64,000 nucleotides of DNA from an uncultured candidatus Porisulfidus sp. (GCA_965215765.1 OZ244118.1:1101007-1165006); one strand, 5' to 3'; numbered from the stretch's first letter, positions 11,684 through 47,870 are shown. Translations and numbers: made by a program. The notes: generated by a model from the sequence alone, not told the origin.

Positions 11684-12565
11684 GTGGGCTGTGTCAAGAG
11701 CAACTTGGCAACGAGCGGGATTGCAGTCGTGAAGATCACAGACGTGGATTTTTCGAGACCCTGTCTGATGGGGATTCTGAACGTCACGCCGGACAGTTTT
11801 TCAGACGGTGGGAATTATCTCGATCCGCGCAAGGCGGTTCGGCATGCTGAGGCAATGGTGGCGCAGGGGGTGGATATCATCGACGTTGGTGGGGAATCGA
11901 CCCGTCCCGGTTCCGAACGGGTCTCTGTTGCCGAACAAGGGCGTCGCGTGATTGACGTGATCTCTGCGATACGGAAAGGTTTTCCACATATTCCGGTCAG
12001 CATTGACACCACTAAAAGTGCAGTCGCAGATATGGCTTTGGCGGCGGGTGCCAGCATCCTGAATGATATTTCCGCTGGCTGTGAAGACCCTGGCATTTTC
12101 CGGCTTGCTGCAGAAAGCGGGGCTTATTTGTGTTTAATGCATAAACAGGGTTCTCCGAAGGACATGCAGAACGACCCGCACTATGAAGACGTGGTGGCTG
12201 AGGTGGAGGCGTTTTTATTACAGCGCGCGGAGGATGCGAAAGACTCCGGGATTGATGCCAGCAAAATTCTTCTGGATCCGGGCATTGGTTTCGGAAAAAC
12301 CTTGCAACACAATCTGGAACTGCTTGCCAATCTCCAAAACTTGACCCGCCATGCCTACCCGGTTTTGCTGGGTGCCAGTCGTAAGCGTTTTATCGCCAGT
12401 CTTTCGCGAGACGAGTTGCCGCAACAAAGAGAGCCGGCGAGTATCGCGACCACGGTTTATGGTTACTTAAGCGGCGTGAAAGTATTTCGTGTTCACGATG
12501 TGGCAGCCCATCACCAGGCATTGCTCGCCACGAGTGCCATTCACGCGCACCGCTTGCCCGCCTAA
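11684..12565 (+). CDS. folP: Dihydropteroate synthase. The true start may be the GTG at ~11729. The 3' end lies inside a tandem repeat.
   Basis: GILNVTPDSFSDGG is the DHPS signature, and the pterin-binding TIM-barrel fold is consistent along the length. Confidence 0.88.
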   Translation: MGCVKSNLATSGIAVVKITDVDFSRPCLMGILNVTPDSFSDGGNYLDPRKAVRHAEAMVAQGVDIIDVGGESTRPGSERVSVAEQGRRVIDVISAIRKGFPHIPVSIDTTKSAVADMALAAGASILNDISAGCEDPGIFRLAAESGAYLCLMHKQGSPKDMQNDPHYEDVVAEVEAFLLQRAEDAKDSGIDASKILLDPGIGFGKTLQHNLELLANLQNLTRHAYPVLLGASRKRFIASLSRDELPQQREPASIATTVYGYLSGVKVFRVHDVAAHHQALLATSAIHAHRLPA

Positions 12566-13440
12566 TGGCATTTTGCTTCAGGAAGAAGTCCGGACGGATG
12601 ACCCTCGTGCCCTCGTGCCCTTGTTTCCTGGGCGTGGTCTTGCGGGAGGTCTGAGCACAACAGGTGCAGAGACTTCACCGGATCACCGGTTTCCAAGGCA
12701 CTGATAAAAGCAAAAAGTTTGCAACCGCTGCCGCGAAGCTTGTGCAGATTGTGCCGGCTCACCCCACCGATGACGCACATCGGAATGCGCAGGGCTTGTC
12801 GAAATCGTGTTCACGATGTGGCAGCCCATCACCAGGCATTGCTCGCCACGAGTGCCATTCACGCGCACCGCTTGCCCGCCTAATGGCATTTTGCTTCAGG
12901 AAGAAGTCCGGACGGATGACCCTCGTGCTCTTGTCCCCTTGTTTCCTGGGCGTGGTCTTGCGGGAGGTCTGAGCACAACAGGTGCAGAGACTTCACCGGA
13001 TCACCGGTTTCCAAGGCACTGATAAAAGCAAAAAGTTTGCAACCGCTGCCGCGAAGCTTGTGCAGATTGTGCCGGCTCACCCCACCGATGACGCACATCG
13101 GAATGCGCAGGGCTTGTCGAAATCGTGTTCACGATGTGGCAGCCCATCACCAGGCATTGCTCGCCACGAGTGCCATTCACGCGCACCGCTTGCCCGCCTA
13201 ATGGCATTTTGCTTCAGGAAGAAGTCCGGACGGATGACCCTCATGCCCTTGTCCCCTCGTTTCCTGGGCGTGGTCTTGCGGGAGGTCTGAGCACAACAGG
13301 TGCAGAGACTTCACCGGATCACCGGTTTCCAAGGCACTGATAAAAGCAAAAAGTTTGCAACCGCTGCCGCGAAGCTTGTGCAGATTGTGCCGGCTCACCC
13401 CACCGATGACGCACATCGGAATGCGCAGGGCTTGTCGAAA
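12489..13440. repeat. 3 tandem copies (318 bp) of the convergent folP-3'/thiE-3' junction. Each unit holds the last ~25 codons of folP (+) and the last ~70 codons of thiE (-).
   Basis: Identical ORFs MFTMWQPITRHC... at 12489, 12807 and 13125 (+), and MCVIGGVSRHNLHKL... at 12562..12780, 12880..13098 and the thiE tail (-). Confidence 0.85.
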
Positions 13441-15242: not shown

Positions 15243-16574
15243 TTGCCGCCTGAGCATTTCAGGCTTTGGCAAATCACGCTTCCCATGATGTTGACCGGTC
15301 TGTCGGTTCCCTTGCTGGGTTTTGTGGATATCGCAGTGCTTGGCCATCTTGACGATTCGCTTTTTCTTGCGGCGGGGGCTGTCGGGATTGCTGTGATGCA
15401 TTTTCTGTTCTGGCTTTTCGGGTTTTTGCGCATGGGCACGACCGGGATCACCGCACAGTTATACGGAGGAGGGGAACTCAAAACCTTGGTGCGGTGCTTT
15501 CACCAAGTGCTGTTTCTGGGTTTGTTCCTTGCGGGCATTCTGATTCTGCTGAAAGGACCGTTGGTAGAACTGGTTTTGTATTTGTATCACCCGGGTCAAT
15601 CGTTGAGAACCTTGATTTCCGATTATGTAGACGTGCGGATTTGGGCGGCTCCGGCAACCTTTGCCAATTTTATTTTCTGGGGAGTTTTTCTGGGCTTGCA
15701 AAAGCCGCTGGGTCCGTTGGTGCTGATGCTGTTTGTAAACACCTTGAATGCCGTTCTGGATGTGTTTTTTGTGTTTTATATGGGGCTTGACGTGGCCGGG
15801 GTTGCCTTGGCTTCAGTGATAGCTGAATACTGTGGGTTGATACCTGCTATCTGGCTGCTGAGACGTCTCTTCCCCGCCGGCTTCAGTGCCTGGCGCGTTT
15901 CGGAATGGAAGGCGTCCCAGTTGTGGGCATTGCTCTCTTTGAACTATTACCTGTTCCTGCGAACCTTGTTGCTACTGTTTGCCTTTTTCTTTTTCAATTT
16001 GCAATCTGCCAAGTTGGGCGCGGAGTATGTCTCCGCCAATGCCATTTTGATCAACATGCTGATGTTCACGGCTTTTGCGCTTGACGGATTCGCATACGCC
16101 ATTGAAACTTTGGTCGGGTATTGCGCGGGTCGCCGTGACCTTGTGGGGACGAAAAAATTTTTGGCGGCTGGCTGGCTTTGGGCGGGGTTGCTAGGCGGCT
16201 GTTTTTCTCTGTTTTACGGCTTCGGTGGTGGCTGGCTCATTCATTTGTTGACGGATCTGCCCGAGGTGCAGGTGGTCGCAGAGGAATTTCTTTATTGGAT
16301 GGTGTTGATGCCTCTGTTGTGCGTGGTTCCTTTTTTTTACGACGGTGTTTTTATTGGCTTGCTGAGATTCAAAGAGATGATGGTGTGTCTGCTGTTTGCG
16401 ACCCTTGTGGTGTACTTGCCGCTTTGGTACTTTCTCCGCGATTTTGGCAACGATGGACTCTGGATGGCGATGTGTGCTTTTATGCTGGCTCGTGGTCTGG
16501 TGCTCCATATCTGGTATTTGCACTGGCGTGCCAACAACGCGCTTTTTGCCGAGCCGGGGAGAAAAATTGTATAA
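15243..16574 (+). CDS. MATE-family multidrug efflux transporter (DinF/NorM-like), about 12 TM helices.
   Basis: Hydrophobic 443-aa ORF. The N-terminus ...LPMMLTGLSVPLLGFVDIAVLGHL resembles DinF. Confidence 0.8.
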   Translation: MPPEHFRLWQITLPMMLTGLSVPLLGFVDIAVLGHLDDSLFLAAGAVGIAVMHFLFWLFGFLRMGTTGITAQLYGGGELKTLVRCFHQVLFLGLFLAGILILLKGPLVELVLYLYHPGQSLRTLISDYVDVRIWAAPATFANFIFWGVFLGLQKPLGPLVLMLFVNTLNAVLDVFFVFYMGLDVAGVALASVIAEYCGLIPAIWLLRRLFPAGFSAWRVSEWKASQLWALLSLNYYLFLRTLLLLFAFFFFNLQSAKLGAEYVSANAILINMLMFTAFALDGFAYAIETLVGYCAGRRDLVGTKKFLAAGWLWAGLLGGCFSLFYGFGGGWLIHLLTDLPEVQVVAEEFLYWMVLMPLLCVVPFFYDGVFIGLLRFKEMMVCLLFATLVVYLPLWYFLRDFGNDGLWMAMCAFMLARGLVLHIWYLHWRANNALFAEPGRKIV

Positions 16575-16630
16575 GGTCAGCCAGGTTTGAAAAGTGCCAT
16601 AAAGGCGGCATTGCTTACATAAGGAGGTGA

Positions 16631-17374
16631 ATGATGAATTTTCTGGTATTTCAGCATATAGCGTGTGAGCACCCCGGTGTTTTTCGTGACTTTATGCGTT
16701 CAGACGGCGTGAGCTGGGACACGGTGGAGCTGGACGAAGGTGAGAGTATTCCTGACCTGGACGCATACGACGCGCTTTTGGTGATGGGTGGCCCGATGGA
16801 TGTCTGGCAGACACAAAGCTATCCCTGGTTGCTTAAGGAGACCGAAACGATACGGCACTGGGTGCAAACGCTGAACAAGCCATTTTTGGGTTTTTGTCTG
16901 GGGCATCAACTGCTGGCGGTCGCATTAGGCGGGGAAGTCGGCTCCTCAAAAGATGCGGAAATCGGGGTGATGGAAGTCGCATTGAGCGAGTCAGGCCAGT
17001 CCAGTCATTTTTTTGCAGCTTGCCCAAAAAACATCCCATGCCTGCAATGGCATTTTGCTGAAGTGAGCCAATTGCCGGCTGGAGCAACGGTTCTGGCTTC
17101 TTCGCCAAGGTGTAAAGTGAATGCGATGTCGTGGGGCTTAAGGGGTTTTGAAAAGGCGTTCTCGGTGCAGTTTCATGTAGAAATCAGCAAAGACACGGTC
17201 AGGCAGTGGGGCAGCATACCCGAATACGAACAGGCGCTTGAAAAGTCTTTGGGGGCAGGAGCACTGTCCAGACTGGAACAAGATGCGGCGCGTGTCATGC
17301 CGGAACTTAACAAGCTGGCTCGCCAGCTGTATGAAAATTTTATGCGGCAGGTGAGGGCTGAAAAAGCATCTTGA
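16631..17374 (+). CDS. Class I (type 1) glutamine amidotransferase-like protein, copy 1.
   Basis: The GFCLGHQLL nucleophile-elbow Cys and downstream His/Glu fit the GATase1 fold. The length is 247 aa. Confidence 0.75.
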   Translation: MMNFLVFQHIACEHPGVFRDFMRSDGVSWDTVELDEGESIPDLDAYDALLVMGGPMDVWQTQSYPWLLKETETIRHWVQTLNKPFLGFCLGHQLLAVALGGEVGSSKDAEIGVMEVALSESGQSSHFFAACPKNIPCLQWHFAEVSQLPAGATVLASSPRCKVNAMSWGLRGFEKAFSVQFHVEISKDTVRQWGSIPEYEQALEKSLGAGALSRLEQDAARVMPELNKLARQLYENFMRQVRAEKAS

Positions 17375-17433
17375 CTTTCAGCTTCCTGATTGGACAGCGC
17401 GTTTTTGGGTGCGCTTTTGCGTAGGCGCTGAAG

Positions 17434-19304
17434 CCGTTTGCCATCAGGCGATCAAGCGGCTGTCAGGCCGTTTCGTCTTTTCCGCAGATTTCCCGCAGCT
17501 TGTCCTTGGGATCATCCGCGGTCAGCAGTGCTTCTCCGATCAGGAAGGCATACACCGAAGCGTCTTGCAGTTTGAGAACATCAGCGCGATTGTGGATGCC
17601 ACTTTCGCTGACGAGCAGGTAGTTGGCTTCTGGTGGTATCTCGGACGCCAAGCGTAATGTGACATCCAGACGTGTGGTGAAGTCACTCAGGTTGCGATTG
17701 TTGATGCCGCTCGCCGTTTGCCATCAGGCGATCAAGCAGTTGTCAGGCCGCTTTGGTACTTTCCCCGCGATTTTGGCAACGATGGACTCTGGATGGCGAT
17801 GTGTGCTTTTATGCTGGCTCGTGGTCTGGTGCTCCATGGCGTGCCAACAACACGCTTTTTGCCGAGCCGGGGAGAAAAATTGTATAAGGCCGACCAGGCT
17901 TGAAAAGTGCCATAAAGGCGGCCTTGCTTACATAAGGAGGTGAATGATGAATTTTCTGGTATTTCAGCATATAGCGTGTGCACACCTCGGTGTTTTTCGT
18001 GACTTTATGCGTTCAGACGGCGTGAGTTGGGACACGGTGGAGCTGGACGAAGGTGAGAGTATTCCTGACCTGGATGCATACGACGCGCTTTTGGTCATGG
18101 GTGGCTCGATGGATGTCTGGCAGACACAAAGCTATCCCTGGTTGCTTAAGGAGACCGAAACGATACGGCACTGGGTGCAAACGCTGAACAAGCCATTTTT
18201 GGGTTTTTGCCTGGGGCATCAACTGCTGGCGGTCGCATTAGGCGGGGAAGTCGGTCCCTCAAAAGATGCGGAAATCGGGGTGATGGAAGTCGCATTGAGC
18301 GAGTCAGGTCAGTCCAGTCATTTTTTTGCAGCTTGTCCAAAAAACATCCCATGCCTGCAATGGCATTTTGCTGAAGTGAGCCAATTGCCGGCTGGAGCAA
18401 CGGTTCTGGCTTCTTCGCCAAGGTGTAAAGTGAATGCGATGTCGTGGGGCTTAAGGGGTTTTGAAAAGGCGTTCTCGGTGCAGTTTCATGTAGAAATCAG
18501 CAAAGACACGGTCAGGCAGTGGGGCAGCATACCCGAACTCGAACAGGTGCTTGAAAAGTCTTTGGGGGCAGGAGCACTGTCCAGACTGGAACAAGATGCG
18601 GCGCGTGTCATGCCGGAACTTAACAAGCTGGCTCGCCAGCTGTATGAAAATTTTATGCGGCAGGTGAGGGCTGAAAAAGCATCTTGACTTCCAGCTTCCT
18701 GATTGGGCAGCGCGTTTTTGGGCGCGCTTTTGCGTAGGCACTGAAGCCGTTTGCCATCAGGCGACAAGCCGTTGTCAGGCCGTTTCGTCTTTTCCACAGA
18801 TTTCCCGCAGCTTGTCCTTGGGATCATCCGCGGTCAGCAGTGCTTCTCCAATCAGGAAGGCGTACACCGAAGCGTCTTGCAGTTTGAGAACATCAGCGCG
18901 ATTGTGGATGCCACTTTCGCTGACGAGCAGGTAGTTGGCTTCTGGTGGTATCTCGGACGCCAAGCGTAATGTGACATCCAGACGTGTGGTGAAGTCACTC
19001 AGGTTGCGATTGTTGATGCCGCTCGCCGTTTGCCATCAGGCGACAAGCCGTTGTCAGGCCGTTTCGTCTTTTCCGCAGATTTCCCGCAGCTTGTCCTTGG
19101 GATCATCCGCGGTCAGCAGTGCTTCTCCGATCAGGAAGGCATACACCGAAGCGTCTTGCAGTTTGAGAACATCAGCGCGATTGTGGATGCTACTTTCGCT
19201 GACGAGCAGGTAGTTGGCTTCTGGTGGTATCTCGGACGCCAAGCGTAATGTGACATCCAGACGTGTGGTGAAGTCACTCAGGTTGCGATTGTGGATGCCG
19301 CTCG
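17434..19304. repeat. Composite duplication. A ~1.32-kb segment (MATE 3' end + GATase + trpC 3' end) is repeated (16421-17749 then 17750-19025). A 279-bp trpC-3' unit occurs 4 times (17434, 18747, 19026 and the real one at 19305).
   Basis: Near-identical ORFs at 16631 and 17944. The trpC C-terminal fragments MASEIPPEANYLLVSESGIHNRADV... occur at 17463..17651, 18775..18963 and 19054..19242. A MATE C-terminal fragment lies at 17718..17903 with a 16-bp deletion. Confidence 0.85.
17944..18687 (+). CDS. Class I glutamine amidotransferase-like protein, copy 2 (about 6 aa differences from copy 1).
   Basis: It is 98% identical to 16631..17374, including the upstream RBS region. Confidence 0.75.
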   Translation: MMNFLVFQHIACAHLGVFRDFMRSDGVSWDTVELDEGESIPDLDAYDALLVMGGSMDVWQTQSYPWLLKETETIRHWVQTLNKPFLGFCLGHQLLAVALGGEVGPSKDAEIGVMEVALSESGQSSHFFAACPKNIPCLQWHFAEVSQLPAGATVLASSPRCKVNAMSWGLRGFEKAFSVQFHVEISKDTVRQWGSIPELEQVLEKSLGAGALSRLEQDAARVMPELNKLARQLYENFMRQVRAEKAS

Positions 19305-19333
19305 CCGTTTGCCATCAGGCGATCAAGCAGTTG

Positions 19334-20194
19334 TCAGGCCGTTTCGTCTTTTCCGCAGATTTCCCGCAGCTTGTCCTTGGGATCATCCGCGGTCAGCAGT
19401 GCTTCTCCGATCAGGAAGGCGTACACCGAAGCGTCTTGCAGTTTGAGAACATCAGCGCGATTGTGGATGCCACTTTCGCTGACGAGCAGGTAGTTGGCTT
19501 CTGGTGGTATCTCGGACGCCAAGCGTAATGTGACATCCAGACGTGTGGTGAAGTCACTCAGGTTGCGATTGTTGATGCCAATCAATTTCAGCGCTTCGCC
19601 AAGTTCAAGCGCGTATTCCAGATCTGCTTCGTCGTGAATCTCTACCAGCGCGTCCATGCCGAGTTCATCGGCCTGGCTTAGCAGATCGGCCATCTGTTGT
19701 CCGCTCAATGCCTTGGCAATCAGCAATAAGGCATCGGCGCCGTAAGCCCGGCTTTCCACGATTTGCCAAGGGTCAATGATGAAGTCCTTCCGCAAGACGG
19801 GCAAAAAACAGTAGCGGCGAATCATGTCAAGGTGAACGCCTGAGCCTTTGAAAAAATGTTCTTCCGTCAAAACCGAGAGGCATGTAGCACCGGCCTGAGC
19901 GTATTGTCGCGCCAGTTCCAACGGCTGAAACGGCTCGCACAAGATTCCACGACTGGGAGAGGCGCGTTTGATCTCGGCAATGACCGCGGTCTCCTGCTTT
20001 TCTGTGATGCCTTGCAAAGCGGTCAGGAAGCCGCGCGTGTATCCCTGTTCCTCGCCTCGCTCTTTGAGTTCGGTCACTTTCCGGTGCCTTTTGGCATCCG
20101 CTATTGTTTCTTTTTTCTGCTCAAGTATTTTTCGCAACAAGCCCTCTGGTCTTTTCAATTTCTCTCCCTCCTGAGTTGTGCGGTGGTTTCGCAA
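19334..20194 (-). CDS. trpC: Indole-3-glycerol phosphate synthase.
   Basis: Conserved blocks LTEEHFFKGS, FLPVLRKDFIIDPWQI and GINNRNL match TrpC. Confidence 0.9.
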   Translation of the reverse strand: MRNHRTTQEGEKLKRPEGLLRKILEQKKETIADAKRHRKVTELKERGEEQGYTRGFLTALQGITEKQETAVIAEIKRASPSRGILCEPFQPLELARQYAQAGATCLSVLTEEHFFKGSGVHLDMIRRYCFLPVLRKDFIIDPWQIVESRAYGADALLLIAKALSGQQMADLLSQADELGMDALVEIHDEADLEYALELGEALKLIGINNRNLSDFTTRLDVTLRLASEIPPEANYLLVSESGIHNRADVLKLQDASVYAFLIGEALLTADDPKDKLREICGKDETA

Positions 20195-21189
20195 AGTTTC
20201 CGGAGGGTGTTTTCGGCAGCACCGGATTGAATCGCTGTTGAGGCAATGGTGACCCCCTCTTCAAGGGTTTTTGCCATCCCTGAAACGTAAATGGCTCCTC
20301 CGGCGTTCATCGCCACGACATTCCGTGCGGGTCCCGCCTCGCCGGCGAACACCCGTTTTATGATCGCCAGACTTTCTGCCGCTCCGGAGGCACTGATGGT
20401 TGCTTTGTCTGCCAGGTCAAAGCCGAAGTTTTCCGGGCTCAGTGTGTAGATTGATTCTTGATCCTGAACCCGCTCCACGACCCGAGTTTTTGCGGAAATG
20501 GATATTTCGTCCATTCCGTCTTCGCCGTGTACCACCAGGACATGGCGCACGCCAAGTTGGGTGGCCGCTCGAGCCATTGGAAACAGCCATGTGGGGTCGA
20601 ACACACCCAGCAAACGATTATCGGCATGAGCAGGGTTCGCCAAGGGACCCAGCAAGTTGAAAATTGTCCGCACTGACAAGGCTTTGCGTACAGGGCCGAC
20701 GTGGCGCATGGCAGTGTGGTAGACCGGTGCGAAGAGAAAGCCCAGCCCGGTTTCTTCAATACACCGAATCACTTCGGAGGGTTGCAAGGAAATTTCGACT
20801 CCGGCTGCTTCCAAAACGTCAGCGCTTCCGGTTGACCCGGACACGGCACGGTTGCCATGTTTGGCGATTTTGACTCCGGCGGCGGCAGCGACGATGGCAG
20901 CAGCGGTGGAGATATTAAAAGTGCCGGAGGCATCTCCGCCCGTGCCGCAGGTGTCAGTCAAAGGTGCTGGCCAAGACTCCGTCTGCAGGGCGAATTTTTG
21001 CAACACCATGGCCGCTGTGGCAATTTCTTCAGCGCTTTCTTTTTTTGCGCGCCAGGCGATCAAAAGCCCGGCTGTCTGTGCAGCGTCAAGCTCACCCGAC
21101 ATCAGCGCGTTCATGACCGCTGTGACTTGGTGGGGCGCAAGTGCCCGTCTGGCAAGCAGCGTCTCCAGAATTTCCTTATAGGCAGTCAT
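20155..21189 (-). CDS. trpD: Anthranilate phosphoribosyltransferase.
   Basis: [27 protein letters not shown] and [18 protein letters not shown] match TrpD. Confidence 0.92.
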
Positions 21190-21760
21190 GCAGAAAGTGA
21201 TCCAGAAGTTTGTGCCCGTTCTCTGTCAAGATGGATTCGGGGTGGAACTGGACACCGACCAAGGGATATTCCCGGTGTCTGATGCCCATGATTTCTTCGA
21301 CTGTTCCGTTCGCATTCAACGTCCAGGCCGTCACTTCAAAGCAGTCTGGCAGGGTTTCCTTTTGAATGGACAGCGAGTGATAGCGGACTGCCTGGTAGGG
21401 GTTTGCAAAGCCCTCGAACAGCCCTTTTCCGTCGTGGTGAATCAAGGAGGTCTTGCCGTGCATGATGTGTTGTGCACGTACGATTTTTCCGCCGAAGGCC
21501 TGGCAGATGCTCTGGTGTCCAAGGCAGACGCCGATGATTGGCAATTGCCCGGCAAAACGACGAACCAGCTCCAGGGATATTCCGGCTTTCTCTGGTCGGC
21601 AAGGCCCAGGAGAGAGCACAATGCGCTCCGGCTGTCGGCGTTCTATTTCGTCCAGCGTAATCTGGTTGTTTCGTTCTACCCACACCTCTGCACCGAGCTC
21701 GCCCAAGTACTGGACGAGGTTGTACGTGAAAGAGTCGTAGTTGTCGAGAACCAGGATCAT
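21176..21760 (-). CDS. trpG: Anthranilate synthase component II (glutamine amidotransferase). The start is at the ATG overlapping the trpE stop (ATGA).
   Basis: [19 protein letters not shown]..., GVCLGHQ and VQFHPES match TrpG/PabA. Confidence 0.9.
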
Positions 21761-23244
21761 CCGCTGATCCAGTTCTGCTGGCTGGCCGCAACAGCGGCCT
21801 GAATGAGCACTTGCGCCTTGTTCATGGTTTCGTTCCACTCGTTTTGCGGCTGGGAATCAAATACCAGCCCCGCACCTGCCTGGGCATAAATCGTCTGATC
21901 TTTGATGAGTGCTGTCCGAATGGCGATCGCGGTATCAATGGCGCCGTCCCAAGAGATATAGCCCACCGAACCTGCGTAGATCGACCGCCTTACCGGCTCG
22001 AATTGTGCAATCAGTTCCATGGCGCGAATTTTTGGTGCTCCGGTCACGGTTCCGGCTGGAAAGGATGCCTTGAGAATATCCATGGTGGACACTCCTTGTG
22101 CACACCGCCCGACAATGTTGGACACAATATGCATGACGTGCGAGTAACGCTCCACCTTCATCATGCCTTCGACAGTTACGCTGCCGGTTTCGCATACCCG
22201 CCCCAAGTCGTTGCGCCCCAAGTCCACCAGCATCAGGTGTTCAGCCAGCTCCTTGGGATCATTGAGCAGTTCTGTGGCCAGTGCGCGGTCTGTTTTTGGA
22301 TCCTCGCTTCTCGGTCGAGTTCCGGCTATCGGGCTCAAAGTCAAGAGTTCGTTTTCTTTGCGGATCAGGATTTCAGGAGAAGAACCGACAACGTGAAATT
22401 CCCCCAAATCCAGGTAGTACATATAAGGAGAGGGATTGAGATGGCGCAGGCTCCGGTAATAACTCAGTGGCGAGCCAGTAAAGCGAGCCTGTAATCTTTG
22501 GGACACGACTACCTGCATGATGTCGCCATCTTCAATGTATCGCAAAGCGTCTTCGACTGAAGATTTGAAAGCGGATTCTCCGGTCAGCGAAGAAAAGTCA
22601 TTTTCGGAAACAGGCACAAGTGTCTCGTTTCGGGGAGGATATACAGGTGTGTCACGTAGCTGTTCGGCAATTCTGGCAACACGCTGCCTGGTTTTTTCGT
22701 AAGCCTCTTCCTCGTGGGTGTTTGCACAGACAACGATGTGGAGCATGTTGCGAAGTCTGTCCAGGACGATGACTTCGTCTGAAACCATCAGCAGCGCGTC
22801 AGGAACATCCGGTTCATTTGCGGCCGGCATAATATTTGCCAGACAAGGCTCCACCAGACCGGAAATCTCATAGCCAAAGTAGCCTACCAGACCGCCGGAA
22901 AAGCGAGGCGCATTGGCGAGATTTGGCATGCTGCGCTCGGCCAGAAAGTGTTCCAGGTAGTCCAGAGGGGCATCATGCCGGACGTCGGTGCTGGTGTTGC
23001 CATTGAACCAGGTCAGTCGATCACCGCGAATTTCCAGTCGTTCCTTGCAGGGCAAACCAATAATGGAGAAGCGCCCCAAGCGTTCTTCCTGGCTGGCGGA
23101 TTCCAACAGGTAGCCGAACGGGGCGTTTGCCAGTTTCAAGTAAATTCCCAGGGGTGTATCCAAGCCAGCAGGCAGTTCCTGAACCAAGGCTATTTTTGCG
23201 TAGCCTTGTCGTGCGTAACGCGTGTATTGTTGTTCAGTAATCAA
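21757..23244 (-). CDS. trpE: Anthranilate synthase component I.
   Basis: The N-terminus ...[19 protein letters not shown] matches the TrpE regulatory site LLES motif. The C-terminal chorismate-binding domain carries GAVGY. Confidence 0.92.
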
Positions 23245-24790
23245 GGTTGCGAAGTGCCCCCCGGCGTTCTTCCTGGCTGACGGATTCCAAGTAAATTCCC
23301 AGGGGTGTATCCAAGCCAGCAGACAGTTCCTGCACTTGCGGCTATTGTGGCGTAGCCTTGTCGTGCGTAACGCGTGTATTGCTGTTCAGTAATCATGGTT
23401 GCGAAGTGCCCCCCGGCGTTCTTCCTGGCTGGCGGATTCCAACAGGTAGCCGAACGGGGCGTTTGCCAGTTTCAAGTAAATTCCCAGGGGTGTATCCAAG
23501 CCAGCAGGCAGTTCCTGGACCAAGGCTATTTTTGCATAGCCTTGTCGTGCGTAACGCGTGTATTGCTGTTCAGTAATCATGGTTGCGAAGTGCCCCCCGG
23601 CGTTCTTCCTGGCTGACGGATTCCAAGTAAATTCCCAGGGGTGTATCCAAGCCAGCAGACAGTTCCTGGACCAAGGCTATTGTGGCGTAGCCTTGTCGTG
23701 CGTAACGCGTGTATTGCTGTTCAGTAATCATGGTTGCGAAGTGCCCCCCCGGCGTTTTTCCTGGCTGACGGATTCCAAGTAAATTTCCAAGGGTGTATCC
23801 AAGCCAGCAGGCAGTTCCTGCACTTGCGGCTATTGTGGCGTAGCCTTGTCGTGCGTAACGCGTGTATTGCTGTTCAGTAATCAAGGTTGCGAAGTGCCCC
23901 CCGGCGTTCTTCTTGGCTGATGGATTCCAAGCAAATTCCCAGGGGTGTATCCAGGCCAGCAGGCAGTTCCTGGACTTGCGGCTATTGTGGCGTAGCCTTG
24001 TCGTGCGTAACGCGTGTATTGCTGTTCAGTAATCATGGTTGCGAAGTGCCCCCCGGCGTTCTTCCTGGCTGGCGGATTTCAAGTAAATTCCCAGGGGTGT
24101 ATCCAAGCCAGCAGACAGTTCCTGCACTTGCGGCTATTGTGGCGTAGCCTTGTCGTGCGTAACGCGTGTATTGCTGTTCAGTAATCAAGGTTGCGAAGTG
24201 CCCCCCGGCGTTCTTCCTGGCTGACGGATTCCAAACAAATTCCCAGGGGTGTATCCAAGCCAGCAGACAGTTCCTGCACTTGCGACTATTGTGGCGTAGC
24301 CTTGTCGTGCGTAACGCGTGTATTGCTGTTCAGTAATCAAGGTTGCGAAGTGCCCCCCGGCGTTTTTCCTGGCTGACGGATTCCAAGCAAATTCCCAGGG
24401 GTGTATCCAGGCCAGCAGGCAGTTCCTGGACCAAGGCTATTTTTGCGTAGCCTTGTCGTGCGTAACGCGTGTATTGCTGTTCAGTAATCATGGTTGCGAA
24501 GTACCCCCCGGCGTTTTTCCTGGCTGACGGATTTCAAGTAAATTCCCAGGGGTGTATCCAGGCCAGCAGGCAGTTCCTGCACTTGCGGCTATTTTTGCGT
24601 AGCCTTGTCGTGCGTAACGCGTGTATTGCTGTTCAGTAATCAAGGTTGCGAAGTGCCCCCCGGCGTTCTTCCTGGCTGACGGATTCCAAGTAAATTCCCA
24701 GGGATGTATCCAAGCCAGCAGTGCGGCTATTGTGGCGTAGCCTTGTCGTGCGTAACACGTGTATTGCTGTTCAGTAATCATGGTTGCGGA
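23245..24790 (-). repeat. About 10-11 tandem copies (alternating ~150 and ~184 bp) of the trpE 5' end (codons 1 to ~30 or ~57) plus ~20 bp upstream. These are pseudo-starts between rpe and trpE.
   Basis: gcgtagccttgtcgtgcgtaacgcgtgtattgctgttcagtaatca(t/a)gg recurs at ~23353, 23537, 23683, 23837, 23985, 24141, 24290, 24437, 24591 and 24731. ORFs [16 protein letters not shown]... occur repeatedly on the minus strand. Confidence 0.9.
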
Positions 24791-24847
24791 AAACCGAGTG
24801 GAATTTTTTGTGTCCGAACCCGTGAATTTGCTGCCAGCTAGCCGTGC

Positions 24848-25555
24848 TCACTTTGCTTTGCCAGTAGCAGAGCGGAGCTTGGTTCTCATGGTGTCTATGG
24901 TTTTCCGGTAATCAGGAGAGCCAAAAATTGCCGAGCCGGCAACGAAAGTATCGGCACCTGCACTTTTGACGGTGGCTATGTTTTCGGTATTGATGCCGCC
25001 GTCGACTTGCAAGCGAATTTGTCGTCCGCTGGCATCAATAAGGCGGCGTGCCTGTTCCAGTTTTTTGTACGCCAGCGGGAGAAATGTTTGTCCGCCGAAG
25101 CCCGGGTTGACCGCCATCACCAAAATCATGTCAACTTTGTCAAGGATGTAATCCAGGCGGGAAAACCCGCTCGCTGGATTGAAAGCCAAGCCGCTTTTAC
25201 AACCACAGTCGTGGATCAGTTGGAGGCTTCGATCCACATGGTCGCTTGCTTCCGGGTGGAAGCTGATATAGTCGGCTCCGGCTTCGGCAAAGGCGGTGAT
25301 TAGGCTGTCCACAGGTCGGGTCATGAGATGCACATCAATCGGGGAGACAACGCCGTAATTTCGTAGGGCACTACAGACCATGGAACCAAAACTCAGGTTG
25401 GGAACATAGTGATTGTCCATGACGTCAAAATGCACCATGTCGGCGCCGGCATCGAGAACAGCAGACACTTCTTTCCCGAGTCGGGCAAAGTCTGCGGCGA
25501 GTATGGAGGGGCAGATTTGGTCTTTCACTTCACTGTGTTGCGCGGCTTGAGCCAA
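24848..25555 (-). CDS. rpe: Ribulose-phosphate 3-epimerase.
   Basis: [17 protein letters not shown] and GGIN are Rpe motifs. The rpe-trpE linkage is common in gammaproteobacteria. Confidence 0.9.
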
Positions 25556-26186
25556 GGGGGCTTATGGTAACCCAAGCCGAGTGCGGGGTTGCTGGCAAAA
25601 TGGCTTTGAGGCAGTGCTGGTTCGGGCGAGAAGTGGTCAGGCAGACTTGGCAGAGGATTTGTGTGGCAAACGGCGACAGGCCGTGGAGAAAAGCGTTTTG
25701 ATTTCTTCTTTTGGTTTTTTGAGGCTGGCTCTGGTTTTTCTGGGGCTGGCAATGGTGTTTCTGGTTCCGGATCCGAAAGCGGAACTCATTCTGGAGTGGC
25801 CTGAGGTGTTGTTCGTGTTGGTGGCACCTGTAATGGCCCCGCTTTTTTTTTAATACTTTTGCTGGATGCCTTGCTGACCCGACCGTTCTCAAGCGGTGCT
25901 TCCCGCTTGGAATGCCAGCGACTCAACCGTATCCTCGTACTTGATTTGGTGGTGGCCATGTTGCTGTTGCTGGCGTGGTTCCCATATTTTTCAACTTTGG
26001 GTGAAGTGTAGTTCAGGTAACCGTCAGTGGCGCATCCTTTGTTGTTTCAGGCAAAATTTTGGCGGAAGTTTCGGGTCGCGCGTCAAGGGTCAGGCAAGGC
26101 GATCTGGTCTCCAGACAGACTGAAATCGTGGCGAGAGGGATGGGGCACTTTCGAGGCGAAAAAACCAGTCCCGTGTGCTGCTTGAT

Positions 26187-29021: not shown

Positions 29022-29671
29022 GGTTTTTCCAGGTTCCTTTATTTCAGGAGTCTCAGCAGTGCTGTTTTTACGATAGCGACCTGTTATTTTGCCACAGCTT
29101 TTGATTTGGGTTCAGGTGCTGCCAAGGCGGCGAGCAGGTGCAGACAATGGGGCATGGAAGGCTGTTTTAGTGCCCACAGCTTGCGTCATTGGAAAATGTC
29201 CAAGTGCTTGTGTACGTTTGGCAAAGTGTGCAGGAGACCAAGTAGTGCACAGCAGAAAAAAACAGAGCAAGCCCTGCTGCCCTCTGTGAAAGATTGTGTT
29301 CGGGGAACTCAGGAGTTGAAAAGTCAGGTGCTTCAAACGAGACAGAGCGGGTGGTTTTTACCGCCGATACAGGCGAGAAACTGGTCATTACAGGCTTTTT
29401 AGGCTAAAATAGTTGCCAATCGGTTTTGGAGCGATGGGTTCAGGTTCGAGCCTACATGGGCAAATGGAGGTAGGGGAGTTGTGTGTGAAATGACTGTTGT
29501 TCTTTGCGTTCCGGTCTGGGGAAGGTGGCAAAAAAGGTTAAGAAATATCGAGTGCCCATGCTTGATAGTCAATAATTTTATTATGGTCGGAAAAGGCCGT
29601 TTTTCGGGTTGCAGAAGTGTGCTCGAATTGCGTTGGCCACACTTTGTGGCTGTGAATTGTTACAGGAGGTC

Positions 29672-45449: not shown

Positions 45450-47870
45450 TCACTCTATGATCAAGCCTGTGGTCAATGAGGTGCGGAAGTTCAAATTTCC
45501 GCTCCCGACCTTGTTCAAGTCTGGCGAGTCGAAGTAGACTTTCAGTAACAAGCACCTTTGTGTGCCCCAGCTTTCCAGCAGCCACCGCAACAAGGACAAC
45601 CTTGGGGTGCCCCAGATTTTCAGCTACCGCAGGTTCCTCAAGCATCCCATCGTCAAGAAGGTGCGGAAGTTCAAATTCCTGATCCCGACCTTTCTCAAGC
45701 AGGGCGAGTCGAAGGAGATTTTCAGTTTGTGCAACAGAACGATTTAGAACTTCAACAAAGTCTTTTTAAGCCTGTAAAGGACAAGTTGGTTGATCCGGCG
45801 CTTCACGAAAAAGGTTTTTATAACGACAGGACACATGCGCAAGCGAAATCAACCACCGCTGACCAGATCGCCTCTGAAATGATGGAATATATTATTCAAC
45901 GTTGTGGTAGTACTTAAAAGGTAAAAGAGGTAACAGACGATAATCTGAAGCTTCTGAGGATTGCAGGAAATGGAACCAGCTAACAGATGCAGTAGCAGGC
46001 ATCGGGAAATGTAATTGATGGCTTAGCCACTAATCATAAGGCTAAAATGGGTACACGTGTCGAAGAGTTATATGGAAGAGCGGTAGCAGGGGACAGGTAA
46101 AGGACAGCACGTGAAGTCAAGCAGCCGTCGCAGCAAGTAACAACCATGACTTGTGCTTGCCCCCCGGCTTTCCAGCCGCCGCCGCAACAAGGACAACCTT
46201 GGGGTGCCCCAGATTTTCAGTAACAAGCACCTTTGTGTGCCCCAGCTTTCCAGCAGCCACCACGATAGCAATCATGACTTGTGCTTGCCCCGTGTGCCCC
46301 TGGGTTTTAGCCACCACCGCCCGGGCAATTACAACCTGCACCTCTCTCCCGGGACGATCTTTCGCAGTCAGTCGGGTCATCAGTCAGACTCCTTTAGCCA
46401 CCTTTAGCCGCCGCCGCAACAAGGACAACCTTGGGGTGCCCCAAATTTTCAGCTACCGCAGGTTTCTCAAGCATTCCATCGTCAAGAGGGTGCGGAAGTT
46501 CAAATTCCTGATCCCGACCTTTCTCAAGCAGGGCGAGTCGAAGGAGATTTTCAGTTTGTGCAACAGAACGATTTAGAACTTCAACAAAGTCTTTTTAAGC
46601 CTGTAAAGGACAAGTTGGTTGATCCGGCGCTTCACGAAAAAGGTTTTTATAACGACAGGACACATGCGCAAGCGAAATCAACCACCGCTGACCAGATCGC
46701 CTCTGAAATGATGGAATATATTATTCAACGTTGTGGTAGTACTTAAAAGGTAAAAGAGGTAACAGACGATAATCTGAAGCTTCTGAGGATTGCAGGAAAT
46801 GGAACCAGCTAACAGATGCAGTAGCAGGCATCGGGAAATGTAATTGATGGCTTAGCCACTAATCATAAGGCTAAAATGGGTACACGTGTCGAAGAGTTAT
46901 ATGGAAGAGCGGTAGCAGGGGACAGGTAAAGGACAGCACGTGAAGTCAAGCAGCCGTCGCAGCAAGTAACAACCATGACTTGTGCTTGCCCCGTGTGCCT
47001 CTGGGTTTTAGCCACCACCGCCCAGGCAATTACAACCTACACCTCTCTCCCGGGACGATCTTTCGCAGTCAGTCGGGCCAACAGTTAGGCACCTTTAGCC
47101 ACCGCCGCCTCAAGCATCCCATCGTCAAGAAGGCGCGGAAGTTCAAATTTCCGCTCCCGACCTTGCTCAAGTCTGGCGAGTCGAAGTAGATTTTCAGTAA
47201 CAAGCACCTTTGTGTGCCCCCCAGCTTTCCAGCCGCCGCGGCAGCAACCATGACTTGCGCCTGCTCCAAGTGCCCTTGGTTTTTAGCCACCACCGCCCGG
47301 GCAATTACAACCTGTACCTCCACCCCAAGATAATCTTTCGCAGTCAGTCGGGTCATCAGTCAGACTCCTTTAGTCACCGCCGCATCAAGCATCCCATCGT
47401 CAAGAAGGTGCGGAAGTTCAGATTCCCGGTTCCGATCCTGTTCAAGCCGGGCGAGTCGAAGGAGATTTTAGTAACAAGCACCTTTGTGTGCCCCAGCTTT
47501 CCAGCAGCCACCACGATAGCAATCATGACTTGTGCTTGCCCCGTGTGCCCCTAGGTTTTAGCCACCGCCCGGGCAATTACAACCTGCACCTCCACCCCAA
47601 GACGATCTTTCGCAGTCAGCCGGGTCATCAGTCAGACTCCTTTAGCCACCGCCACCTCAAGCATCCCATCGTCAAGAAGGTGCGGAAGTTCAAATTTCCG
47701 ATCCCGAACCTGTTCAAGCCGGGCGGGTCGAAGGAAATTTTAGTAACAAGCACCTTTGTGTGCCCCAGCTTTCCAGCCGCCACCACGGCAGCAACCATGA
47801 CCTGTGCTTGCCCCGTGTGCCCCTCATTACCTGTGCTGCCTGCATGTTGGCTTGAGATTGGTGCGTTTCG
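45450..47870. repeat. Field of about 10 degenerate ~245-bp repeats (expanded from the 38860-39450 type) interleaved with two copies (45650-46100 and 46480-46930) of a decayed QFVQQ module riddled with stops.
   Basis: The cagtaacaagcacctttgtgtgcccc(c)agctttcc..gccaccgc motif recurs at least 8 times. Identical ORF fragments lie at 45558..45917 and 46558..46746. Confidence 0.75.

What the first reader, a model, noticed from the sequence alone, without database searches (positions are those of the whole stretch)
23245..24790. About 11 tandem pseudo-starts of trpE between rpe and trpE
Units of about 150 and 184 bp alternate. Each carries about 20 bp of upstream sequence (including the RBS region) and the first ~30 or ~57 codons of trpE, terminating in-frame with ...[12 protein letters not shown] just before the next ATG. 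Transcripts from rpe or any upstream promoter must traverse 1.5 kb of repeated short ORFs with RBSs before reaching trpE. This could act as a translational sink or terminator, or it may simply be slippage debris. It is unusually extreme for a biosynthetic operon.
Basis: seen in the sequence. Interest (0 to 1): 0.55.

Follow-up and report, generated by a model that had tools for sequence, protein, structure and literature searches.

The report
Strain-variable tandem trpE 5'-fragment array
Ten head-to-tail copies of the first part of the tryptophan gene trpE sit in front of the intact gene, but they look like tolerated duplication debris in a bacterial lineage whose genome is unusually full of such arrays, not like a tryptophan control device.

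Summary
The array is real. It has 10 pseudo-starts plus the true trpE start on the minus strand (23245-24781). Units measure 138/151-153 bp with a single 184-bp unit, so there is no 150/184 alternation. Only 6-9 nt of native leader is carried, with no recognisable RBS. Six of 10 units are frameshifted. The founding duplication joined codon 59 of trpE to the leader at a 3-nt microhomology (TTC). Same-species assemblies carry 10, 10 and 6 units in shuffled mosaic order. A ~91%-identical sister genome has none, and an ~83% relative instead has 10 pseudo-starts of the neighbouring rpe. The window holds nine unrelated long-period arrays (12.7% of its bases, against 0.1% in 909 kb of outgroup loci). 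All of them span gene ends or spacers and none is internal to a gene (P~9e-5). I found no promoter, sense-strand terminator, Rfam hit, unusual RNA fold, tandem Trp codons or coding constraint. Best reading: microhomology-mediated tandem duplication followed by unequal exchange, kept only where an intact gene copy survives. It is probably tolerated because every unit ORF stops at a TGA at or just after the next start, giving a chain of stop/start overlaps down to trpE. The regulatory reading is not supported. The lineage-wide density of arrays is the more interesting result.

The parts
24848..25555 (-). rpe (ribulose-phosphate 3-epimerase), the gene upstream of the array. The ORF is 235 aa from TTG; relatives' gene calls give 226 aa.
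   Evidence: ORF list; PF00834 on the orthologous genes.
24782..24847 (-). Native 66-nt rpe-trpE spacer (leader). It is present once only, upstream of unit 1, and has no SD-like core and no sigma70-like promoter.
   Evidence: Alignment with the array-free L083 and L082 leaders; promoter scan; SD check.
24644..24781 (-). Unit 1 (138 bp, ATG). It is the only unit behind the native leader. It has a 14-nt internal deletion plus the 33-nt deletion, and its length is a multiple of 3, so its ORF runs on into unit 2 (97 aa).
24492..24643 (-). Unit 2 (152 bp, TTG), frameshifted type. The 51-aa ORF ends with a TGA overlapping the next start (NTGA).
24341..24491 (-). Unit 3 (151 bp, ATG), in-frame gene-like type. 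The 53-aa ORF ends ...[10 protein letters not shown], with its stop 8 nt after the next start.
24189..24340 (-). Unit 4 (152 bp, TTG), frameshifted type with NTGA overlap.
24037..24188 (-). Unit 5 (152 bp, TTG), frameshifted type with NTGA overlap.
   Evidence: RNA fold z=0.06.
23885..24036 (-). Unit 6 (152 bp, ATG), frameshifted type with NTGA overlap.
23732..23884 (-). Unit 7 (153 bp, TTG; an extra G in the G-run). Its length is a multiple of 3, so its ORF fuses into unit 8 (104 aa).
23581..23731 (-). Unit 8 (151 bp, ATG), in-frame type. The 53-aa ORF ends ...[10 protein letters not shown].
23397..23580 (-). Unit 9 (184 bp, ATG), the only full-length unit. It holds codons 1-59 of trpE without the 33-nt deletion and differs from the real gene's 5' end at about 4 sites.
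23245..23396 (-). Unit 10 (152 bp, ATG), frameshifted type. Its TGA overlaps the real trpE TTG start (TTGA).
21757..23244 (-). Intact trpE (anthranilate synthase component I, 495 aa, TTG start). It is the eleventh and only complete copy of the start region.
   Evidence: PF04715+PF00425, with homologues aligning from residue 1-2.
19334..21838 (-). trpG, trpD and trpC downstream of trpE, forming the rest of the operon.
   Evidence: Pfam families of the orthologues.
18746..19579 (.). Sister array: 279 bp x 3 (98% matches) made of the last 246 nt of trpC plus about 33 nt downstream. A further copy lies at 17453-17752, inside a 1.3-kb duplication that also doubles the GATase gene.
   Evidence: Copy number differs in L081 and L084; the array is absent in L083.
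12487..13440 (.). Sister array: 318 bp x 3.0 (99%) spanning the convergent 3' ends of folP and thiE.
   Evidence: TRF finds no array there in L083 or L082.
7463..8335 (.). Sister array: 218 bp x 4.0 (98%). Each unit holds the first 24 nt of mutS, the spacer, and the last 78 nt of the upstream ORF.
4254..4945 (.). Sister array: 231 bp x 3 (93%). It covers the mutS 3' end (12 nt) plus the spacer.
1854..2588 (.). Sister array: 182 bp x 4 (80%), including the 3' end of a 549-aa ORF.
46970..47824 (.). Sister array: 272 bp x 3.1 (86%). Its gene context is unclear.
54530..55114 (.). Sister array: 300 bp x 2 (84%), including the 3' end of a 477-aa paralog-family ORF.
63102..64000 (.). Sister array: 211 bp x 4.3 or more (94%). 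It runs off the end of the window.

Best explanation
The array is a variable-number tandem repeat made from local sequence, not a regulatory element.

A founding illegitimate duplication joined trpE codon 59 (...GCGCTTC) to the leader 6 nt before the start codon (TTC|GCAACC) at a 3-nt microhomology. This produced a 183/184-bp unit holding 6-9 nt of leader plus codons 1-59 (shown).

A 33-nt slippage deletion between TTGAAA and TTGGAA, and a 1-nt indel variant, then produced the 151/152-bp forms. Unequal exchange and conversion between units amplified and shuffled them to 6-10 copies (shown by comparing strains).

The same process acts across this lineage's genome. Only duplications that span a gene end or spacer persist, because they leave one intact gene copy at the edge of the array (inferred from the positions of 9 of 9 arrays).

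The array is tolerated in front of trpE because the native start context NTGATTACTGA holds a TGA in both alternative frames. Every unit ORF therefore terminates at -4 (NTGA) or -11 relative to the next start. That gives an unbroken chain of translated short ORFs with stop/start overlaps from the native leader down to the real TTG. Such a chain should prevent out-of-frame read-in and untranslated-RNA polarity, and it may pass ribosomes on by termination-reinitiation. The geometry is shown; its effect on expression is inferred.

The cause of the high duplication rate is not known. A defect in Okazaki-flap processing or in another slippage-suppressing function is a guess.
For: Array anatomy.

Junction and microhomology, using the array-free L083 and L082 as proxies for the ancestral state.

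Strain comparison: the window and L081 have 10 pseudo-starts in different order, L084 has 6, and L083 and L082 have 0. Flank identity is 98-99% for L081/L084, 90-92% for L083 and about 83% for L082. The same biallelic sites recur in mosaic combinations across 26 units.

Lineage-wide pattern: 9 arrays make up 12.7% of the window, against 5 small arrays making up 0.1% of 909 kb of outgroup loci. An analogous array of 10 rpe pseudo-starts exists in L082. No sequence is shared between arrays. All arrays span gene ends or spacers, with random-placement P about 9e-5.

No coding constraint: variable sites fall 11/8/9 by codon position, 13 synonymous against 16 nonsynonymous changes, and 6 of 10 units are frameshifted.

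Stop/start geometry. A published review states that NTGA (-4) is the commonest spacing and among the most efficient for coupling, and that MIRU ORFs are coupled the same way (PMC12548453).

General mechanism of microhomology-mediated tandem duplication followed by expansion, and its increase when Rad27 is lost: bioRxiv 10.64898/2026.02.28.708716.
Against: No expression data exist, so a quantitative effect of copy number on trpE output cannot be excluded.

The microhomology is only 3 nt, and the junction has 2 substitutions plus 1 inserted G relative to the inferred parent sequences, so the exact breakpoint is an inference. Younger arrays show only 0-1 nt of apparent microhomology, which fits blunt illegitimate joining as well as it fits MTD.

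All 26 pseudo-units keep a valid start codon and both TGAs. This is compatible with neutrality at this level of divergence, but it would also fit weak selection for the coupling chain.

The lineage-wide claim rests on 64 kb plus four ~20-kb loci, not on whole genomes. The sister genome L083 has few arrays in the region compared.

Read-level support for exact copy number and order was not available.
Confidence: 0.8

Rival explanations
1. The array is a regulatory device for trpE. The repeated short ORFs would act as a translational sink, an attenuator or a transcription terminator that makes trp operon expression conditional.
For: Ten translatable short ORFs lie between the leader and trpE, each with the same start context as the real gene. 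Six of the ten units contain one Trp codon in the frameshifted frame.
Against: No sense-strand terminator-like site with a credible U-tract and no promoter. No Rfam match in the window. Unit RNA folds at z=0.06. No tandem Trp codons. The array is absent from the sister species and the 83% relative, which keep the same operon. Copy number and order are unstable within the species. Similar arrays sit at 3' ends of unrelated genes. There is no sequence constraint.
Confidence: 0.06
2. The array is a selected contingency or tuning locus. Expansion and contraction of the repeat would change trpE (or operon) expression between cells or strains, and this variability would itself be advantageous.
For: Copy number varies between 0, 6 and 10 among close relatives. 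All pseudo-starts and stop/start overlaps are retained. Tandem repeats upstream of genes serve this role in other bacteria (general knowledge; see also the discussion in 10.64898/2026.02.28.708716).
Against: trpE is a housekeeping biosynthetic gene. The same lineage has arrays at 3' ends and at convergent gene ends, where tuning is implausible. Unit length of ~152 bp and units whose lengths are not multiples of 3 do not switch the real gene's frame. No phenotype data exist.
Confidence: 0.08
3. The array is an assembly artefact, meaning an over-expanded or mis-joined repeat.
For: Tandem repeats are error-prone for assemblers. Exact copy number and order were not checked against reads. Coverage of the related contigs is modest (13x and 19x).
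Against: Three separately assembled versions all contain the array, with distinct unit orders and unit-specific SNPs and indels. Units differ at 28 substitution sites, which an assembler does not invent. At 1.5 kb the array is short relative to long reads. Relatives assembled as circular ~1.9-2.0 Mb contigs at 58x and 87x show arrays of the same kind elsewhere.
Confidence: 0.04
4. The array is a store of silent cassettes for gene conversion into the expressed gene, as in vls or pilS systems.
For: Partial copies without the native leader lie directly upstream of the complete gene. The mosaic polymorphism among units indicates conversion or exchange.
Against: The target is a cytoplasmic enzyme (PF04715/PF00425). 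The real gene's 5' end is nearly identical in the three array-bearing strains and carries none of the unit-specific variants, such as the 33-nt deletion, GCAAGTG or CGGGGGGCA. Units differ from the gene mostly by disabling changes.
Confidence: 0.02

Closest known systems
Microhomology-mediated tandem duplication (MTD) expanding into variable-number tandem repeats or minisatellites
   Same: The unit is local single-copy sequence duplicated head to tail at a short microhomology (TTC). It then expanded to multiple copies, and copy number varies between close strains. The general process is described across bacteria in bioRxiv 10.64898/2026.02.28.708716.
   Different: Units here are long (105-318 bp) and arrays cover about 13% of the window. 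That is far above the 0.1% in outgroup loci and above typical bacterial VNTR unit sizes (my own knowledge). Microhomology at the younger arrays is only 0-1 nt. All surviving arrays sit on gene boundaries.
MIRUs (mycobacterial interspersed repetitive units)
   Same: Both are tandem, strain-variable repeats lying between co-oriented genes, whose internal short ORF is coupled to the downstream gene with an NTGA (-4) stop/start overlap. This is thought to minimise the effect on expression (PMC12548453). The trpE array has the same geometry at 6 of 10 junctions, including the last one into trpE.
   Different: MIRUs are a dispersed family with a shared consensus and 40-100-bp units (my own knowledge). 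Here each array is made from its own locus, and no sequence is shared between arrays. The stop/start overlap is inherited from the trpE start context rather than brought in by an element.
trp operon leader peptide / attenuator (trpL)
   Same: Short ORF(s) lie upstream of trpE on the same transcript.
   Different: No tandem Trp codons, no terminator or antiterminator, no Rfam hit, and no conservation in relatives.
Silent partial-gene cassette arrays (Borrelia vls, Neisseria pilS)
   Same: Both are tandem partial copies next to a complete expressed copy, with signs of exchange among copies.
   Different: The target is a housekeeping enzyme, no transfer of cassette variants into the gene is seen, and the cassettes are degenerate rather than diversified.
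Tandem repeats containing gene fragments in organelle genomes with relaxed repair (mitochondrial control-region repeats, Geraniaceae plastomes)
   Same: Arrays of gene-end fragments accumulate next to intact genes in small genomes. This comparison rests on my own knowledge plus the titles found.
   Different: This is a free bacterial chromosome of about 2 Mb with an intact mutS. No link to loss of repair genes has been shown.

Membership tests
Tandem-duplication-derived VNTR / minisatellite | Head-to-tail copies of one unit derived from adjacent single-copy sequence | tested here: met
   TRF finds 10.8 copies. The unit alignment matches the trpE 5' end. The single-copy state is seen in L083 and L082.
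Tandem-duplication-derived VNTR / minisatellite | Copy number and/or unit order varies between closely related genomes | tested here: met
   10, 10, 6, 0 and 0 pseudo-starts. Order is not conserved at 98-99% flank identity.
Tandem-duplication-derived VNTR / minisatellite | Founding junction at a microhomology (MTD subtype) | tested here: inconclusive
   The trpE junction fits a 3-nt TTC microhomology, but it has 3 later changes. Other arrays show 0-1 nt.
trp leader-peptide attenuator | Leader ORF with consecutive Trp codons | tested here: not met
   Unit ORFs have 0 or 1 Trp codon, never in tandem.
trp leader-peptide attenuator | Alternative terminator/antiterminator hairpins with a U-tract before trpE | tested here: not met
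   No credible sense-strand terminator. Unit fold z=0.06. No Rfam family reaches gathering score.
MIRU-like intercistronic repeats | Internal short ORF with a stop/start overlap to the downstream gene | tested here: met
   NTGA overlap at 6 junctions and an 11-nt overlap at 4 junctions.
MIRU-like intercistronic repeats | Dispersed family: the same unit consensus at many loci | tested here: not met
   No cross-similarity among the units of the 9 arrays.
Silent-cassette gene-conversion system | Cassette-derived variation appears in the expressed copy | tested here: not met
   The 5' ends of the real gene in the window, L081 and L084 lack all unit-specific variants.
Silent-cassette gene-conversion system | Target is a surface-exposed or variable antigen | tested here: not met
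   The target is anthranilate synthase component I (PF04715, PF00425).
Mobile or selfish repeat (IS, MITE, REP) | Shared element sequence or terminal inverted repeats at each site | tested here: not met
   Units are pure local sequence, and there is no shared sequence between arrays.

The most novel reading that the evidence does not exclude
This uncultured gammaproteobacterial lineage (circular genomes of about 1.9-2.0 Mb) may have a heritable hyper-tandem-duplication phenotype. A possible cause is impaired Okazaki-flap processing or another lost slippage suppressor. The result would be that a tenth or more of the chromosome is 100-320-bp arrays sitting on gene boundaries and turning over faster than point divergence. 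Arrays in front of genes would survive only when, as at trpE and rpe, they form self-terminating chains of pseudo-start ORFs coupled to the real start. To my knowledge that density and architecture have not been described for a bacterial chromosome.
Probability: 0.3. Interest if true: 0.7.

Novelty: new variant of a known kind. Interest (0 to 1): 0.45.

Why it matters
For trpE itself it matters little. The array is most likely a tolerated by-product, and the operon should not be annotated as having a novel attenuator. It matters more as a natural experiment.

First, the set of arrays shows directly how selection filters tandem duplications in a compact genome, because only those that preserve an intact gene at the array edge survive.

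Second, the trpE and rpe arrays show that a gene can tolerate more than 1.5 kb of repeated pseudo-starts when its own start context supplies stops in both other frames. That is a testable rule for translational coupling chains.

Third, a lineage with array density roughly 100-fold higher than its relatives is a place to look for the genetic determinants of tandem-duplication rate in bacteria.

Practically, these arrays produce many spurious short 'genes'. Examples are the 80-aa Ribul_P_3_epim fragments and the 77-aa ORFs called in the relatives. They will also confound short-read assembly and binning.

Tried and rejected
1. Genome-contig scan with TrpE. The closest species representative is only 57% identical, so it gave no close relative. 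I used its 80 loci as the outgroup baseline instead.
2. First exact look-up of the window's TrpE failed, probably because the reference included the stop codon or an L at the TTG start. It worked via P0001 from the protein search.
3. P0123, the fourth cluster member, was not on record.
4. The Trp attenuator, terminator and riboswitch idea was rejected.
5. The dispersed-element idea (MIRU, REP or MITE-like) was rejected because arrays share no sequence.
6. The silent-cassette idea was rejected.
7. A DGR-like targeted mutagenesis idea was rejected. Variable sites involve all base types, mostly transitions, and are not adenine-specific.
8. A junction-specific 40-mer scan of JGI metagenome contigs found nothing.
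9. Literature searches for an existing description of gene-boundary arrays at this density, or for the family name Oxydemutatoraceae, found no direct precedent. The Nitrosomonas europaea genome paper, which I vaguely recalled as mentioning tandem partial gene copies, is not held, so that recollection is untested and I did not use it.
10. A batch fold failed on a length limit and was redone singly.
11. The 'len mod period' estimate of microhomology is crude. I treat it as inconclusive for the older, indel-bearing arrays.

Full report
**1. What is there**

All genes in this region are on the minus strand, in the order rpe (24848-25555), the array, trpE (21757-23244, TTG start, 495 aa), trpG, trpD, trpC. 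Tandem Repeats Finder reports a 152-bp-period array of 10.8 copies, scoring 1893, and up to 2263 for the 304- and 456-bp higher-order periods.

A 20-nt anchor from the trpE start occurs 11 times. These are ten pseudo-starts, at 24781, 24643, 24491, 24340, 24188, 24036, 23884, 23731, 23580 and 23396, plus the real start at 23244. Unit lengths are 138, 152, 151, 152, 152, 152, 153, 151, 184 and 152.

So the array is real and far beyond chance. The reported 150/184 alternation is not real, because there is a single 184-bp unit (U9).

**2. Anatomy of a unit**

I compared the units with the array-free orthologous loci L083 and L082. The ancestral gene reads ...GAAGAACGCTGGGGGCGCTTC|TCC... and the native leader reads ...GGTTTTTC|GCAACC-start. 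Every unit ends ...GAAGAACGCCGGGGGGCACTTC|GCAACC.

The founding event therefore joined codon 59 of trpE to a point 6 nt before the start codon, at a TTC microhomology. Two substitutions and one extra G were fixed before amplification. A unit holds 6-9 nt of leader plus codons 1-59.

The 151-153-bp forms lack 33 nt (codons ~37-47). That deletion lies between TTGAAA and TTGGAA. Most of these units also carry a clustered variant, GCAAGTG in place of TTGGTC, that adds one base and shifts the frame.

There is no Shine-Dalgarno-like core within 25 nt of the start in either the native leader or the units, although other genes here (GATase, trpC) have strong ones.

**3. Reading frames**

Four unit ORFs are in frame and end ...RRGALRN(H/L)DY*. 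Six are frameshifted and end ...PGGTSQP*. Two units whose length is a multiple of 3 (U1 and U7) read through into the next unit.

In every case the stop is a TGA that either overlaps the next start (NTGA, '-4' spacing; six junctions, including the one into the real trpE) or lies 8 nt after its first base (four junctions).

This follows automatically from the native start context NTGATTACTGA, which has a TGA in both alternative frames. The third frame is simply the next unit's own ORF.

**4. Comparison with relatives**

The protein search found an identical TrpE and an 83% relative, and the cluster listing gave further members. Their contigs were fetched.

| Locus | Source | Flank identity to window | trpE pseudo-starts |
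|---|---|---|---|
| Window | unknown | - | 10 |
| L081 | ERZ25071281, 19x, linear contig | 98-99% | 10, different unit order (152, 153, 136, 152, 151, 138, 152, 152, 152, 152) |
| L084 | ERZ25071281, 13x, linear contig | 98-99% | 6 |
| L083 | circular 1.92 Mb, 58x | 90-92% | 0; rpe and trpE are 66 nt apart |
| L082 | circular 2.0 Mb, 87x | about 83% | 0 |

Across the 26 pseudo-units the same small set of biallelic sites recurs in shuffled combinations. That is the signature of repeated unequal exchange or conversion.

L082 has no trpE array, but it has ten pseudo-starts of rpe. Those units are 236-258 bp, holding the first ~74 codons plus a short junction, and they sit ahead of the intact rpe.

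**5. The phenomenon is lineage-wide and local in origin**

The window contains nine long-period arrays (periods 152-318 bp, 2-10.8 copies, 80-99% matches) covering 8136 bp, or 12.7%. The 80 outgroup loci total 909 kb and hold five small arrays with periods of 63-96 bp, covering 0.1%.

The nine arrays share no sequence with each other. Each overlaps a gene end or a spacer:
- the 3' end of trpC;
- the convergent 3' ends of folP and thiE;
- the mutS 5' end together with the upstream gene's 3' end;
- the mutS 3' end;
- the 3' ends of two unknown ORFs;
- the trpE 5' end.

None is internal to a gene. With about 80% coding density, a random unit would be internal 60-70% of the time, so the probability that none of nine is internal is about 9e-5. 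The gene context of two arrays is unclear, so the exact figure is soft.

The trpC-3' array and a nested 1.3-kb duplication carrying a GATase gene also differ in copy number among strains and are single-copy in L083.

**6. Tests of a regulatory role**

- There is no sigma70-like promoter in 22900-25700, and no credible sense-strand terminator. The repeated '+'-strand hits are a weak 6-bp stem inside trpE codons, antisense to the gene.
- No Rfam family reaches its gathering score anywhere in the window.
- A 152-nt unit folds at -39 kcal/mol against -39.2 for shuffles, z=0.06. The real 5' end gives z=-0.95.
- Unit ORFs contain 0-1 Trp codons, never in tandem.
- Variable sites among pseudo-units are spread 11/8/9 over codon positions, with 13 synonymous and 16 nonsynonymous changes. 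So there is no protein-level constraint.

**7. Most likely mechanism**

The sequence shows a local tandem duplication at a short microhomology, later internal slippage deletions, and amplification and reshuffling by unequal exchange. The published framework is microhomology-mediated tandem duplication expanding into tandem repeats, which is stimulated when Okazaki-flap processing (Rad27) fails (bioRxiv 10.64898/2026.02.28.708716).

Two points are inferred. The first is that the positional bias reflects purifying selection: duplications inside genes are lost, and those spanning a boundary leave an intact copy. The second is that the array is tolerated in front of trpE because it is a continuous chain of translated short ORFs with stop/start overlaps. 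According to the translational-coupling literature, NTGA is the commonest spacing and among the most efficient, and MIRU repeats appear to use the same geometry to insert at start codons with minimal effect (PMC12548453).

The cost is roughly ten wasted 51-104-aa peptides for each initiation on trpE, if all starts are used equally. The ultimate reason for the high duplication rate is unknown. mutS in the window is intact, with all five domains present.

**8. Comparison with known systems**

The array behaves like a VNTR or minisatellite generated by tandem duplication, and it meets that family's defining features (see the membership table). It resembles MIRUs in its coupling geometry, but it is not a dispersed element. 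It is not a trp attenuator and not a silent-cassette system. I did not find a description of bacterial chromosomes with this density of 100-320-bp gene-boundary arrays. The library is incomplete, though, so absence of a precedent is weak evidence.

**9. Caveats**

- Exact copy number and order depend on assemblies I could not check against reads. That these are long-read assemblies is inferred from the contig names and circular ~2 Mb contigs.
- The organism is known only as an uncultured gammaproteobacterium whose nearest represented TrpE is 57% identical.
- The array-specific junction was not found in JGI metagenome contigs.
- The lineage-wide claim rests on about 150 kb of sequence.

**10. 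Verdict**

As a trpE feature this is a new instance of a known kind of mutation product, with an unusual and testable architecture (a pseudo-start coupling chain). As a property of the lineage it is an unusually extreme variant that is worth a whole-genome follow-up.

Noticed in passing
window 29400-59710 (+ strand ORFs at 29609, 31580, 37542, 40485, 44136, 48498, 50738, 53264, 55651, 58186): Ten-member paralog family, 202-1702 aa. Members share a ~95%-conserved upstream region (TTGATAGTCAATAATTTTATTAYGGT...) and the first ~100 residues (MMANSVGNLFTKYSATYSK...). The C-terminal parts are variable, there is no Pfam match, and GC is lower (45-47%). The layout resembles effector or polymorphic-toxin families with a common N-terminal module.
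   Followed up: partly
window 16418-19579; L081:13666-17523; L084:11826-16329: Nested duplication. A ~1.3-kb unit carrying a 247-aa class-I glutamine amidotransferase gene plus trpC-3' fragment repeats is present twice in the window and in L081, three times in L084, once in L083, and apparently not at all in L082.
   Followed up: partly
L082:6797-9463: In the 83% relative, rpe is preceded by 10 pseudo-starts of rpe (units 236-258 bp). Gene callers annotated them as a run of 46-80-aa 'Ribul_P_3_epim' proteins.
   Followed up: yes
window 4254-4945 and 7463-8335: mutS (850 aa, all five MutS domains intact) is flanked on both sides by tandem arrays. The upstream one duplicates its first 24 nt together with the preceding gene's last 78 nt.
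   Followed up: partly
window 23076-23078 (trpE codon 56): TrpE residue 56 is Trp (TGG) in L083 and L082, Leu (TTG) in all three array-bearing strains, and Arg (CGG) in every pseudo-unit. Both changes derive from TGG. This suggests the founding duplication predates the W56L change, which lies 3 codons from the duplication breakpoint.
   Followed up: no
window 23245-24781, start codons of units: The start codon is polymorphic, ATG or TTG, among units (16 ATG and 10 TTG across 26 units in three strains). Unit 1, behind the native leader, is ATG in all three strains. The real gene is TTG in all five genomes. No unit has lost its start codon.
   Followed up: partly
window 1-64000: GC skew is positive across essentially the whole window (cumulative skew rises to 3.0). 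The + strand is therefore probably the leading strand, and rpe, the trp operon and mutS would be transcribed head-on to replication. No tRNA gene and no Rfam family were found in 64 kb.
   Followed up: no
L083:16140-16461 and L082:15829-16120: The array-poor relatives still have small, young arrays (105 bp x 3.1 near the rubredoxin gene; 146 bp x 2 at the thiD 5' end, 98% matches). The process therefore seems to be active across the clade.
   Followed up: no
window 23245-24790, + strand: Each unit also carries a ~56-aa antisense ORF (MYCCSVI[KM][15 protein letters not shown]...) that repeats along the array. It is probably meaningless, but it would be called as a gene family by an ORF finder.
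   Followed up: no
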